From Dickeya dadantii NCPPB 898 (GTDB taxonomy: Bacteria > Pseudomonadota > Gammaproteobacteria > Enterobacterales > Enterobacteriaceae): a stretch of 6,759 nucleotides of DNA. The notes beneath the pieces were generated by a model. It saw only the letters and a program-made list of their open reading frames with translations. It did not search any database and had not been told where the DNA came from. Below, piece after piece: positions 4,831 to 6,759 of the stretch (within the stretch, counting starts at the first letter, position 1; every line of letters starts with the position of its first letter). Location of the stretch: positions 1-6,759 of the forward strand of contig NZ_AOOE01000047.1 of assembly GCF_000406145.1 (NCBI RefSeq), written 5' to 3'. The translations under genes were made by a program, and so were the position numbers.

Positions 4831-6759
4831 CTGTCCGATCCGTTCCCCCCCAGGCGACGGTCTGCCTGAACCTTAAGTGAAAAACCGGCGTGAAGCGCAT
4901 CATCCACGGACAGTGTAAGAGGATAATTGGTGCGCTCTTCCACCTTCAGGAGTTCGATGCCGGGCCACGGGTCTTCGGCGGCATCGGCGTTTGCCGGTGT
5001 AACATCATGACGATAGTTCAGCAATGCGCTGAATAAGGGCTGCGACGCGGCAACGCCACTGCATTGCTGTGCCAGCGTCAGCGAGGCGTGCTCATGGGCC
5101 AGCAGGTCGGCCAGACGGCGATGCGTCTGATCGAGCGCGGCGCGGACGGTGATATCGGCCAGCGTCAGTCGCAGCGGCAGGGTGTTAATAAACAACCCCA
5201 GCGCCTGTTCGCGACCGTCTTGCAGACGGCCCAGCAGCATGGTGCCGAAGACCACATCATCACGACCGGACAGCGCACCGATAACGTGGCCCCAGGCCAG
5301 ATGGAACAGACTGGCGGCACTGATGCCCTCTTGTTGCGCCTGCCGGCGAATGCGTCCGGCCAGTGTGTCCGGCAGCGGCAGGATGGCTTCATCCATATCG
5401 ACCAGCGCGGTCAGGCCGCCGGGCAGGGTGGGCTCTTCCACTTCCGCCAGTTGCTGATGGAAAAAGGCTTTATCGTCAGTGGCGGCGGCTCTGGCCCGTA
5501 CCTGTGCGACGTGATTACGGAAGGGAATCGATGCCGACAGTTGATCCCATTCACCGCGCTCGTCCGCGTGTATTTCATCGAGCAGGATAGCTAGCGTGGT
5601 GTGATCCAGACACAGGTGATGGTATTGCAGACACAGCAGCCAGCGGTCATTGGCTTCATCATTTGCCATCAGCAGGTTGAACAGCGGTGCCTGACGCAGA
5701 TCCAGACGGCACGGTTTCATACTGAACAGCTGATCGGCGGCGTCGCCCGCAGTCGGACTCAGGTGCACCTGCGTTGCCGTCAGTTCGGCACGACGTAACA
5801 CCACCTGTACCGGTTGCGGCAAGCCTTCCCAGCGCACGGCGGTGCGCAGAATATCGTGACGGGCAATCACGCGGTTCAGCGAGGCGATAAACGCCTCCAG
5901 TCGCTGTCGTGTTGCAAATGCCAGCAGTGAACTGTTCAGGTAAGGATCATGCGACTCCGCCAGCAGGTAGTGATACAGCACGCCTTCCTGTAACGGGGTC
6001 AGCGGGTAGATATCCTGAATCTGGCGGACGCCATCGGGGACACTGGATACAATCCGATCAATGTCCTCCTGCGTCAGTTCAAGTAACGGCAGCATGGCCG
6101 GTGTAATGCGCTGACTGTCGGCGGTAATCCGGTTTTCCGGTATCGCCGTCTGTTCAAAACGTTCAATCGTCGTGGCAAGCTCCGCCAGCCTGGTGTGCTC
6201 AAATACCGCCCGCACCGGGACATTCAGGCCCTGACTCTGCAGTGCGGCAATCAGACGCACCACCAGCAGGGAATGACCGCCGAGCTCGAAGAAATGATCC
6301 TGTCGCCCGACGCGCTCAATGCCGAACAGGCTCTGCCAGATAGCAGCCAGAGCCTGTTCGGTCTCGCCCTGCGGGGCTTCGTAGCCGGTGCGGACAAAGG
6401 CGCTGTCGTCCGGGGCCGGTAAGGCCTGGCGATCGAGCTTGCCGTTGGGCGTCAGCGGCAGCGCATCCAGCCGCACAAAGGCCGACGGCAGCATATAGTC
6501 CGCCAGCTGCTGCGCCAGCGCCTGACGCAGCCCGGCGGGTTCGGGGAGAATACCGGCTTCCGCGACCAGGTAGGCCACCAGACGCCTGTCACCCGGGCTG
6601 TCTTCGCGTGCAATCACCACCGCTTCGCGCACGCCGGCGCACTGCACCAGACACGCTTCGATCTCTCCGGGTTCGATACGGAAGCCCCGGATTTTGACCT
6701 GGCAGTCATTACGACCCAGGTATTCGATCGTGCCATCCGGCAGCCAGCGTCCCAGGTCC
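4827..6759 (-). CDS. Non-ribosomal peptide synthetase, 5'-partial reading frame: A-domain C-terminal part, T (PCP) and C domain. It ends at TGA 4829..4827, just after a homopolymer frameshift.
   Basis: This is the ORF-track frame (606 aa). I also checked the same frame from 6647 up to 6758 and found no stop, so it is truncated by the window; the 'M' at 6647 is an internal GTG Val. Motifs seen: A8 [21 protein letters not shown]9 LADYMLP, A10 NGKLDR, T core FFELGGHSL, and C motifs [35 protein letters not shown]. Confidence 0.9.
4845..4851. repeat. 7-nt homopolymer (C7 on the plus strand, G7 on the coding strand) at the point where the NRPS frame changes
   Basis: Plus strand 4841-4852 reads cgttcccccccа-equivalent 'cgtt ccccccc a'. 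The upstream frame reads CTG GGG GGG AAC. The downstream frame reads GGG GGG GAA over the same bases. Confidence 0.95.
4845..6014 (-). other. Condensation domain 1, dual-E/C-like clade with non-canonical His motifs. Its last helix is encoded in the other frame, downstream of the frameshift.
   Basis: Motifs seen: [23 protein letters not shown] (C1 region, from 6014), [22 protein letters not shown] (5595-5621), [32 protein letters not shown]. Confidence 0.8.
6156..6365 (-). other. Thiolation (PCP) domain of module n
   Basis: The sequence reads [42 protein letters not shown]... The phosphopantetheine-attachment Ser codon is at 6270-6272 (plus-strand gga, which reads TCC on the coding strand). 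Confidence 0.9.
6263..6495. repeat. Inter-module direct repeat, module-n copy (A10 / A-T linker / N-terminal half of T)
   Basis: 6263-6422 matches 3027-3186: 160 bp with 13 mismatches by hand alignment, including exact runs of 40 bp and 56 bp. 6427-6495 matches 2-70: 69 bp with 3 mismatches, including a 51-bp exact run. Confidence 0.9.
6429..6759 (-). other. Adenylation domain, C-terminal subdomain only (module n): A8 to A10
   Basis: A8 [20 protein letters not shown] lies at 6657-6718, [10 protein letters not shown] follows, and A10 NGKLDR lies at 6429-6446. The specificity pocket lies outside the window. Confidence 0.9.

What the first reader, a model, noticed from the sequence alone, without database searches (positions are those of the whole stretch)
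4845..6014. Condensation domain 1 looks dual-E/C-like but has deviant catalytic and N-terminal His motifs ([16 protein letters not shown])
C domain 2 is a textbook LCL domain ([29 protein letters not shown]). C domain 1 has the hallmarks I associate with the dual epimerization/condensation clade:
- a T-C linker ending in [10 protein letters not shown]...
- [10 protein letters not shown] in the C1 region
- RHDILRT..W
- PFRNHVA
- [10 protein letters not shown]
- EHASL..AQ

Two motifs deviate:
- The C3 active-site motif is HHLCLDHTT (5595-5621), where HHxxxDGWS is expected. The G is replaced by H and the WS is missing.
- The position of the extended N-terminal His motif reported for dual E/C domains (HH[I/L]xxxxGD) reads HYLLAESHD.

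The catalytic second His and the Asp are retained, so condensation is plausible. Whether the domain epimerises the upstream residue is open. It could instead belong to another specialised subtype, such as a modifying or dehydrating C domain. There is no separate E domain in the window, so this domain decides the stereochemistry of the module-n residue. It is also the domain truncated by the frameshift.
Basis: partly seen in the sequence, partly recalled or inferred. Interest (0 to 1): 0.45.

Follow-up and report, generated by a model that had tools for sequence, protein, structure and literature searches.

The report
Ordinary dual epimerization/condensation NRPS domain
This is a normal member of the known "dual epimerization/condensation" class of peptide-synthetase domains; the active-site motif flagged as deviant (HHxxxDH) is that class's usual motif, and only a small N-terminal motif is mildly unusual.

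Summary
The window is a whole 6759-bp Dickeya dadantii draft contig. It encodes, on the minus strand, A(end)-T-C1-A-T-C2-A(end) of an NRPS.

All quoted motifs are at the stated coordinates. The "deviant" catalytic motif is not deviant. HHxxxDH is the consensus of the dual E/C clade: His follows the Asp in 104/116 nearest homologs and 306/375 dual-type domains. Most LCL/DCL-type domains (76/87) in the same proteins carry Gly-Trp-Ser there. A 2023 paper on Pseudomonas lipopeptide synthetases states the same.

C1 scores 619 bits on a clade HMM built without it; the window's LCL domain C2 scores 91. C1 nests inside the clade in a bootstrapped tree. It also has the long T-C linker and donor T-domain type of that clade.

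The N-terminal motif does deviate. HH[I/L]xxxxGD reads HYLLAESHD. The second His is absent in about 9% of clade members and the Gly in about 31%. The variant is conserved in three Dickeya-lineage relatives.

C1 lacks the HHxxDDx variant that goes with Ser/Thr donors (candidate dehydrating type).

Whether C1 epimerises cannot be decided from sequence.

The frameshift is one G missing from a homopolymer run; relatives are intact.

Verdict: new member of a known kind, low interest.

The parts
6417..6758 (-). C-terminal part (A8-A10) of the adenylation domain of module n. Its substrate code lies outside the contig.
   Evidence: Pfam AMP-binding_C, residues 32-107 of the repaired product; coordinates.
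6156..6365 (-). Thiolation domain T1, the donor carrier for C1. The GGHSL Ser motif is at 6267-6281.
   Evidence: Pfam PP-binding. T1 scores 101.9 bits on an HMM of T domains that precede dual-type C domains, against 91.9 on the HMM of T domains that precede LCL/DCL domains. T2 shows the reverse, 91.4 against 114.2.
6015..6155 (-). Long T-C linker, including [10 protein letters not shown] at 6048-6077.
   Evidence: There are 88 aa from the T1 Ser to the C1 motif, against 58 aa for T2 to C2. PMC10212144 reports about 92-105 aa before Dual domains and about 60-70 aa before LCL domains. The linker matches the clade consensus LxQxxIDRIVAxVPGG.
4845..6014 (-). Condensation domain C1, dual E/C clade: the part read in the upstream frame, from DIYPL to RRLGG.
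   Evidence: 619 bits on the clade HMM built without it. NJ bootstrap placement. AlphaFold2 model with mean pLDDT 88.1 and pTM 0.86. The nearest solved structures are DCL domains.
5946..5972 (-). N-terminal secondary His motif, HYLLAESHD. The clade consensus is HH[L/I]xxxxGD.
   Evidence: In the census, the first His is present in 96%, the second His in 91% (Tyr 4%), the Gly in 69% and the Asp in 98%. The query keeps the first His, the Leu and the Asp, and changes H to Y and G to H. The model places it at the end of helix 28-39 and in the following loop.
5595..5621 (-). Active-site C3 motif, HHLCLDHTT. This is the clade consensus form HHxxxDH(T)(T/A).
   Evidence: His after the Asp in 104/116 nearest homologs and 306/375 dual-type domains; Gly-Trp-Ser in 76/87 LCL/DCL-type domains of the same proteins. 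Stated in PMC10531924.
4845..4851 (-). Homopolymer run, G7 on the coding strand, where the reading frame is lost. One more G restores ...[16 protein letters not shown]...
   Evidence: Relatives read GGC GGT or GGT GGC at this point and are intact.
4711..4844 (-). Last about 45 aa of C1 plus the C-A linker, read in the downstream frame, from [10 protein letters not shown] to [10 protein letters not shown].
   Evidence: Continuous with C1 in D. oryzae L001, D. dadantii P0185 and MAG L002. The repaired protein has no stop codon.
3181..4605 (-). Adenylation domain of module n+1, which loads the acceptor for C1. Code DVQFIAQVV(K), Pro-like.
   Evidence: The code was extracted by HMM alignment. It is one residue from DVQFIAHVV, which occurs 12 times in the census. 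The assignment to Pro rests on the Stachelhaus code recalled from the literature.
2923..3129 (-). Thiolation domain T2.
   Evidence: Pfam PP-binding at 1214-1277 of the repaired product; LCL-associated subtype.
1555..2862 (-). Condensation domain C2, LCL type ([19 protein letters not shown] at 2470-2496).
   Evidence: Pfam Condensation. Only 91 bits on the dual-clade HMM. Gly-Trp-Ser after the Asp.
1..1449 (-). Adenylation domain of module n+2, which runs off the contig. Code DATKIGEVG(K), Asn-like.
   Evidence: It is one residue from DATKVGEVG. The assignment to Asn rests on the recalled Stachelhaus code.

Best explanation
C1 is a regular member of the dual epimerization/condensation (E/C, also written C/E) clade of NRPS condensation domains. 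This is the type that supplies D-residues in Pseudomonas cyclic lipopeptide synthetases without a separate E domain.

Proposed mechanism, inferred from the family:
1. The peptidyl thioester on T1 enters the donor side of C1.
2. The domain removes and returns the C-alpha proton of the thioester-bound C-terminal residue.
3. Like its DCL sister clade, it then selectively couples the D-epimer to the amino group of the residue on T2. That residue is probably L-Pro. The second His of HHLCLDH acts as the catalytic residue.

The His that replaces the canonical Gly, and the Thr-Thr that replaces Trp-Ser, are the clade's normal residues and not a defect. The N-terminal motif HYLLAESHD is a lineage-specific minority variant. 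It keeps the first His and the clade-specific Asp.

Shown here: clade membership (about 0.95) and consensus status of the C3 motif. Inferred only: that epimerisation actually takes place. The confidence of 0.6 refers to the whole statement, including active epimerisation.
For: - The nearest 116 homologs are 47-54% identical, mostly Pseudomonas lipopeptide-type NRPS fragments, including syringopeptin synthetase.
- Among them, H-H-x-x-x-D is invariant or nearly so, and the next residue is His in 104/116.
- In a census of 375 dual-type domains from 150 cluster representatives plus fetched loci, His follows the Asp in 82% and Gly does not appear among the six commonest residues at that position. 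Gly-Trp-Ser occurs in 76/87 low-scoring LCL/DCL-type domains of the same proteins.
- HMM scores are bimodal, at least 400 bits or at most 200 bits. The query scores 619.
- NJ tree with 200 bootstraps: dual-type domains plus the query clade are monophyletic in 100%, DCL-like domains are their sister in 100%, and the query clade is sister to all other dual-type domains in only 4.5%.
- The query departs from only 7 of 90 columns that are at least 85% conserved in the clade. The clade median is 5, and 25% of members depart at 7 or more.
- The donor T-domain subtype and the 88-aa T-C spacing fit the Dual type.
- Literature: dual E/C domains of Pseudomonas lipopeptide synthetases carry HHxxxDH (PMC10531924). 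Definition of Dual E/C domains and their N-terminal motif: PMC1894796.
- The best NCBIfam hit is NRPS_SolG (404 bits). NaPDoS placed the SolG C domain in the dual clade (PMC10204066).
- The nearest solved structures, by sequence and by fold, are DCL domains: PvdL C3, SrfA-C, TycB C1 and McyB C1.
Against: - The strict N-terminal signature HH[I/L]xxxxGD is not matched. The second His is Tyr and the Gly is His.
- In Pseudomonas lipopeptides, 74 of 468 E/C-type domains with known outcome do not epimerise, and no sequence feature predicts which (PMC10531924).
- The substrate of module n and the product are unknown.
- The gene carries a frameshift in this assembly.
- No activity data exist for this lineage.
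Confidence: 0.6

Rival explanations
1. C1 is an E/C-type domain by descent but is silent for epimerisation. It only condenses, so residue n stays L. The H to Y and G to H changes in the N-terminal motif would be part of that loss.
For: - 74/468 (16%) of E/C-type domains with experimentally known outcome are epi-inactive (PMC10531924).
- The second His of the N-terminal motif, one of the positions that separates dual from DCL-like domains in the census, is lost.
- The change is conserved in D. oryzae L001, D. dadantii P0185 and MAG L002. It is therefore a fixed lineage trait and not an error.
Against: - PMC10531924 finds no striking difference in this motif between 394 active and 74 inactive domains.
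- About 9% of clade members lack the second His and about 31% lack the Gly, scattered over many synthetases and donor types.
- All other clade-conserved residues are kept, including H36, D44, Y46, H153, H154, D158 and H159.
Confidence: 0.25
2. C1 is a dehydrating C/E-type domain, like those proposed for solanimycin SolF/G/H. It would convert a Ser or Thr donor to Dha or Dhb before condensation.
For: - The best NCBIfam hit is the solanimycin SolG model (404 bits).
- The closest single homolog (54%) is a Pectobacterium domain with HHLVDDATS and an HS...HD N-terminal motif.
- In P0185, from another D. dadantii strain, the same C1 unit follows an A domain with the Ser code DVWHFSLVD. MAG L002 carries a Ser-like upstream A domain read by eye.
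- Dehydrating members of the C/E clade are proposed in PMC10204066 and PMC10880069.
Against: - C1 has Leu, not Asp, at the position before the conserved Asp, and it has the canonical His after it.
- In the census, the HHxxDDx variant has Ser/Thr-coding donors in 28/32 cases, against 66/242 for HHxxxDH (odds ratio 18.7, p = 5e-11). C1 is of the second kind.
- The SolG score is far below the model cutoff of 2200.
- The donor A domain in this window differs from that of P0185, and its substrate is unknown.
Confidence: 0.07
3. The domain is non-functional in this strain. The frameshift is real, it cuts C1 before its last helix, and it uncouples the downstream modules, so the gene is a pseudogene. 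This is independent of which chemistry the intact domain would perform.
For: The assembly has a stop 6 codons after the G7 run, and NCBI annotates a 643-aa partial protein that ends there.
Against: - The lesion is a single base missing from a homopolymer, which is the commonest sequencing or assembly error.
- The downstream frame stays open for 1600 codons with intact A, T and C motifs.
- All three relatives are intact.
Confidence: 0.12

Closest known systems
Dual E/C (C/E) condensation domains of Pseudomonas cyclic lipopeptide synthetases (arthrofactin, syringopeptin, entolysin type; Rausch et al. 2007 'Dual E/C' subtype)
   Same: - 47-54% identity over the whole domain.
- The C3 motif HHxxxDH-T-(T/A)-L.
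- C1, C2, C4 and C5 motif forms: YPLxPLQEG, [13 protein letters not shown], PFRNxVAQ, G(L/M)[14 protein letters not shown].
- Position directly after a T domain with no E domain.
- Long T-C linker and donor T-domain subtype.
   Different: - The N-terminal motif reads HY....HD, not HH....GD.
- The host is Dickeya (Pectobacteriaceae).
- The query, L001, P0185 and L002 form their own well-supported sub-branch (100% bootstrap).
- Epimerase activity is untested.
C domains of the solanimycin NRPS SolF/SolG/SolH (Dickeya solani)
   Same: - Best NCBIfam hit (NRPS_SolG, 404 bits over model positions 89-551).
- Same bacterial family.
- Both lie in the dual clade by similarity.
   Different: - The Sol domains have HHxxDDx and are proposed to dehydrate Ser to Dha. 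C1 has canonical HHxxxDH.
- The score is far below the SolG cutoff of 2200, so C1 is not SolG.
- The module context differs: Pro-like and Asn-like downstream modules.
DCL condensation domains (PvdL C3, SrfA-C, TycB C1, McyB C1)
   Same: - Nearest solved structures by sequence (83-132 bits) and by fold (TM 0.71-0.80).
- Sister clade in the tree.
- Shared YPL(S/T)PxQEGxL(F/L)H start.
   Different: - DCL domains follow a separate E domain and carry HHxxxDGWS.
- They lack the second N-terminal His and the conserved Asp of GD.
- They score about 80-185 bits on the dual-clade HMM, against 619 for C1.

Membership tests
Dual E/C condensation domain (Rausch 2007) | Clusters with Dual E/C domains in phylogeny, as sister to DCL | tested here: met
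   619 bits on a clade HMM built without the query. The score distribution is bimodal. In an NJ tree with 200 bootstraps, the clade including the query is monophyletic in 100%, DCL-like domains are sister in 100%, and the query is nested in 95.5%. Caveat: reference labels were assigned here from motifs and architecture, not from a curated set.
Dual E/C condensation domain (Rausch 2007) | Second, N-terminal His motif HH[I/L]xxxxGD | tested here: inconclusive
   The motif is at the right place, but as HYLLAESHD. The first His, the Leu and the Asp are kept. The second His is Tyr and the Gly is His. In 374 clade members the second His is absent in 9% and the Gly in 31%. From the sequences listed I counted about 5-6% lacking both. 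The strict pattern fails; a degenerate form is present.
Dual E/C condensation domain (Pseudomonas lipopeptide form) | Active-site motif HHxxxDH (His, less often Ala or Asn, in place of Gly) | tested here: met
   HHLCLDH at 5595-5615. Consensus shown. Stated in PMC10531924.
Dual E/C condensation domain | Follows a C-A-T or A-T module directly, with no E domain in between | tested here: met
   Domain order is A-T-C1-A-T-C2-A, and Pfam finds only two Condensation-family stretches.
Dual E/C condensation domain | Long T-to-C spacing (about 92-105 aa, against about 60-70 for LCL) and matching donor T subtype | tested here: met
   88 aa for T1-C1 against 58 aa for T2-C2 (PMC10212144). T1 scores 10 bits higher on the dual-associated T HMM, and T2 scores 23 bits higher on the other.
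Dual E/C condensation domain | Epimerises the donor residue, giving a D-residue in the product | not testable with these tools
   No product, no assay, and no sequence predictor exists. 16% of E/C-type domains are silent (PMC10531924).
LCL condensation domain | C1 motif SxAQxRLWxL and C3 motif HHxxxDGWS | tested here: not met
   C1 has YPLTPLQEG and HHLCLDHTT. The window's own LCL domain C2 scores 91 bits on the dual-clade HMM, against 619 for C1.
DCL condensation domain | Lies downstream of an E domain and carries HHxxxDGWS | tested here: not met
   There is no E domain upstream, and His-Thr-Thr stands in place of Gly-Trp-Ser. DCL-like domains in the fetched loci and proteins score about 80-185 bits.
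Candidate dehydrating C/E domains (solanimycin SolF/G/H type) | C3 variant HHxxDDx with a Ser or Thr donor | tested here: not met
   C1 has Leu at the first D position. The DD variant is tied to Ser/Thr donors (28/32 against 66/242). The donor substrate in this window is unknown.
CmodAA / DHC dehydrating condensation domains (AmbE-C2 type) | Sequence membership of the modAA clade | tested here: not met
   AmbE CmodAA scores 62 bits and McyA C 77 bits, against 116-132 bits for the DCL structures PvdL C3 and McyB C1 and more than 425 bits for dual-type homologs.

The most novel reading that the evidence does not exclude
The HY....HD form of the N-terminal motif is fixed in a Dickeya-centred sub-branch (the window, D. 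oryzae, a second D. dadantii strain and one MAG). It could mark C/E-clade domains that have lost epimerase activity, or changed it, while keeping condensation. If so, this natural variant would point to the second N-terminal His as a determinant of epimerisation in dual E/C domains. No structure and no diagnostic sequence feature exist for that question.
Probability: 0.2. Interest if true: 0.4.

Novelty: new member of a known kind. Interest (0 to 1): 0.15.

Why it matters
The practical value is corrective. HHxxxDH must not be read as a damaged active site. It is the hallmark of dual E/C domains, so genome-mining rules that expect HHxxxDG(WS) everywhere will raise false alarms.

For this Dickeya NRPS, the default prediction for residue n is the D-configuration, followed by a Pro-like and then an Asn-like residue. 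That prediction carries the known error rate of about 16% for this class, plus extra doubt from the N-terminal variant.

The side observation may be more useful for product prediction than the finding itself: the HHxxDDx variant tracks Ser/Thr donors.

Tried and rejected
- Structural geometry: an AlphaFold2 model was made (pLDDT 88.1) and searched against the PDB. The tools return no coordinates, so the distance from Tyr37 or His43 to the catalytic His could not be measured. The search only showed that DCL domains are the nearest solved folds and that no dual E/C structure is in the library.
- Activity of Tyr variants: I looked for data linking a Tyr at the second His position to epimerase activity in the supplement of PMC10531924. 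There is no per-domain motif table.
- Second His versus the HHxxDDx type: I tested whether loss of the second His goes with the HHxxDDx type. It does not (4/34 against 25/300, p = 0.52).
- First NJ runs: one run rooted only on the window's LCL domain put the query clade near the base. A second used score-based labels. Both were confounded and were replaced by the motif-labelled, bootstrapped analysis.
- Genomic context: the genome-collection scan found only short contigs for the close relatives. The full gene cluster, the donor A domain of this strain and the product remain unknown.
- Plus-strand ORFs (for example 988-3093): treated as antisense shadows of a GC-rich gene and not pursued.
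Full report
**What is in the window.**
The six-frame translation shows a single NRPS gene on the minus strand. Its order is the end of an adenylation domain, T1, condensation domain C1, a complete A domain, T2, condensation domain C2, and most of a third A domain. Pfam finds AMP-binding, AMP-binding_C, PP-binding and exactly two Condensation-family stretches in the repaired 2253-aa product, so there is no separate E domain. The identical 643-aa product in the protein collection is a partial Dickeya dadantii protein whose only contig is 6759 bp long. The window is therefore a whole small contig of a draft genome. Both ends and several internal segments are 68-86% identical NRPS repeats, which explains why the assembly broke here.

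**Check of the observation.**
- HHLCLDHTT at 5595-5621
- HYLLAESHD at 5946-5972
- [10 protein letters not shown] at 6048-6077
- [10 protein letters not shown] at 5982-6011
- RHDILRT at 5841-5861
- PFRNHVA at 5505-5525
- [10 protein letters not shown] at 5169-5198
- EHASL at 5079-5093

C2 carries [19 protein letters not shown] and [10 protein letters not shown].

The reading frame of C1 is lost at a run of seven G on the coding strand (+ strand 4845-4851). Three relatives read GGC GGT or GGT GGC at that point and continue ...[15 protein letters not shown]... without interruption. Adding one G to the window gives the same sequence and a stop-free protein.

**The catalytic motif is the clade consensus, not a deviation.**
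- The 116 full-length nearest homologs are 47-54% identical and come mostly from Pseudomonas lipopeptide-type synthetases, including syringopeptin synthetase. They have H (115/116), H (116/116), x, x, x, D (116/116). The next residues are His (104/116; Ala 6, Asn 4), Thr (81/116), Ala/Thr and Leu.
- I widened this with a search of 1.84 billion cluster representatives. I extracted every near-full C-like domain from the best 150 proteins and from the fetched loci, 469 domains in all.
- Their scores on a clade HMM built without the query are bimodal: 344 domains at 400 bits or more, 88 at 200 bits or less, and one in between.
- Among 375 dual-type domains, the residue after the Asp is His in 82%, Asn in 8% and Ala in 4%. 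Gly does not appear among the six commonest residues.
- Among 87 low-scoring LCL/DCL-type domains of the same proteins, it is Gly in 76, followed by Trp in 78 and Ser in 72.
- The literature says the same. [quoted passage not shown]

**Placement of C1.**
- C1 scores 619 bits on the clade HMM built without it or its close relatives. The window's C2 scores 91 bits.
- Domains I labelled DCL-like, including one that directly follows an E-type HHLVVDAVSW domain in locus L015, score about 80-185 bits. LCL-like domains fall in the 50-150-bit bins, with labelled examples at 100-145 bits.
- I built a neighbour-joining tree of 71 domains with 200 bootstraps. The dual-type domains plus the query clade are monophyletic in 100% of replicates. 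The DCL-like domains are their sister in 100%. The query clade is monophyletic in 100% and is sister to all other dual-type domains in only 4.5%, so it is nested.
- C1 departs from 7 of the 90 columns that are at least 85% conserved in the clade. The clade median is 5, and a quarter of members depart at 7 or more.
- Two independent context features agree. The distance from the T-domain Ser to the C1 motif is 88 aa before C1 and 58 aa before C2. This matches the roughly 92-105 aa against 60-70 aa reported for Dual and LCL domains in PMC10212144. T1 scores 10 bits higher on an HMM of T domains that precede dual-type domains, while T2 scores 23 bits higher on the other HMM.
- The best NCBIfam hit is the solanimycin SolG model (404 bits, far below its cutoff of 2200). 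NaPDoS placed the SolG C domain in the dual clade (PMC10204066).
- By sequence and by fold, the nearest solved structures are DCL domains: PvdL C3, SrfA-C, TycB C1 and McyB C1. No dual E/C structure turned up.

**The N-terminal motif does deviate, but within the clade's natural range.**
- Rausch et al. define the extra motif as HH[I/L]xxxxGD (PMC1894796).
- In the census, the first His is present in 96%, the second His in 91% (Tyr 4%, Ser 3%), the Gly in 69% and the Asp in 98%.
- C1 keeps the first His, the Leu, the Asp and the flanking Pro-Tyr. It has Tyr for the second His and His for the Gly.
- About 9% of clade members lack the second His and about 31% lack the Gly. From the sequences listed there I counted about 5-6% lacking both. 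These domains are scattered over many synthetases and donor types, sometimes in every module of one protein.
- The variant is fixed in the close relatives: HYLLAESHD in D. oryzae L001 (88% identical) and in D. dadantii P0185 (89%), and HYLLAESND in MAG L002 (79%).
- The AlphaFold2 model (pLDDT 88.1, pTM 0.86) places the motif at the end of helix 28-39 and in the following loop. The C3 motif sits at the end of strand 145-153 and the start of helix 159-173. The tools give no coordinates, so distances could not be measured.

**Epimerising, silent or dehydrating?**
- PMC10531924 reports that 74 of 468 E/C-type domains with known outcome do not epimerise. It also reports that the secondary motif shows no striking difference between active and inactive domains. 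Sequence therefore cannot settle this. I take active epimerisation as the default, discounted for the variant motif.
- For the dehydrating alternative, raised by the similarity to SolG, I extracted specificity codes of the flanking A domains by HMM alignment and joined them to the C3 variants.
- Domains with Asp before the conserved Asp (HHxxDDx, the form reported for SolF/G/H in PMC10204066) have Ser- or Thr-coding donor modules in 28 of 32 cases. Canonical HHxxxDH domains do so in 66 of 242 cases (odds ratio 18.7, p = 5e-11).
- One example, P0122, reads Thr-C(HHLIDDATSL)-Pro-C-Val-C-Val-C-Ala. From my memory of the structure, this corresponds to the Dhb-Pro-Val-Val-Ala start of syringopeptin-type peptides.
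- C1 has Leu and His at these positions, so it is of the canonical kind.
- In P0185, the same C1 unit follows an A domain with the Ser code DVWHFSLVD. L002's upstream A domain, read by eye, is also Ser-like. For those relatives the more likely outcome is D-Ser, not Dha.
- In the window the upstream A domain is a different one, and its code lies outside the contig.

**Acceptor side.**
The A domain after C1 has the code DVQFIAQVV(K). This is one residue from DVQFIAHVV, which occurs 12 times in the census. The third A domain has DATKIGEVG(K), one residue from DATKVGEVG. By the Stachelhaus codes as I recall them, these are Pro and Asn. The unit C1 plus Pro-like A domain recurs behind three different upstream A domains, in the window, in L001 and in P0185/L002. 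This points to module shuffling with a junction near the A10/T region.

**Verdict.**
The quoted sequences are real. The interpretation "dual E/C-like" is right. The claim of a deviant catalytic motif is wrong. The N-terminal motif is a mild, lineage-specific variant of unknown consequence. This is a new member of a known kind and of low interest. The one reading that would raise interest cannot be tested here: that the HY....HD variant marks a loss or change of epimerase activity and so identifies a determinant of epimerisation.

Noticed in passing
window 4845-4851 (+ strand C7, coding strand G7): The frameshift in C1 sits in a homopolymer that exists only in this sequence. D. oryzae L001, D. 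dadantii L017 and MAG L002 read GGC GGT or GGT GGC there and are intact. One added G restores the frame. It is probably a sequencing or assembly error, but a real frameshift is not excluded.
   Followed up: yes
census of 374 dual-type C domains from P0121-P0270 and loci L003-L016; window position 5607-5609 (Leu157 of C1): The C3 variant HHxxDDx(S/T) is strongly tied to Ser/Thr-coding donor A domains: 28/32 against 66/242 for HHxxxDH (odds ratio 18.7, p = 5e-11). One example, P0122, reads Thr-C(HHLIDDATSL)-Pro-Val-Val-Ala. This fits a dehydrating sub-type inside the dual E/C clade, as proposed for solanimycin SolF/G/H. It could serve as a predictor of Dha/Dhb residues.
   Followed up: partly
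window 3181-4605 and 1-1449 (minus strand): The specificity codes of the two downstream A domains are DVQFIAQVV(K), one residue off the common Pro code, and DATKIGEVG(K), one residue off the Asn code. The predicted peptide segment is X(n)-Pro-Asn.
   Followed up: partly
window 6015-6758 compared with L001:1-850, L017/P0185 residues 480-700 and L002: The unit C1 plus Pro-like A domain (79-89% identical) sits behind three different upstream A domains. In P0185 that A domain has the Ser code DVWHFSLVD, and L002's is Ser-like by eye. This suggests module recombination with a junction near the A10/T region, or several paralogous copies within one synthetase.
   Followed up: partly
L002 (JARRJP010000091.1, MAG labelled Reinekea sp.), 1-12632: A scaffold binned as Reinekea encodes an NRPS 79% identical to the Dickeya one. 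Its C3 reads NHLCIDH, with the first His replaced. It ends in T-TE-TE followed by an ABC exporter gene. This is either horizontal transfer or a mis-binned scaffold.
   Followed up: no
window 141-440 / 3315-3614; 3016-3295 / 6252-6531; 4-137 / 3193-3326 / 6429-6562: Intragenic direct repeats of 68-86% identity lie at the A8-A10 and T-domain regions. Both contig ends fall inside them, which explains why this NRPS is scattered over small contigs in several Dickeya draft genomes.
   Followed up: yes
window + strand, e.g. 988-3093, 3259-4014, 4363-4725: Long ORFs of up to 701 aa lie antisense to the NRPS gene. They look like shadow ORFs of a GC-rich coding region and not genes.
   Followed up: no
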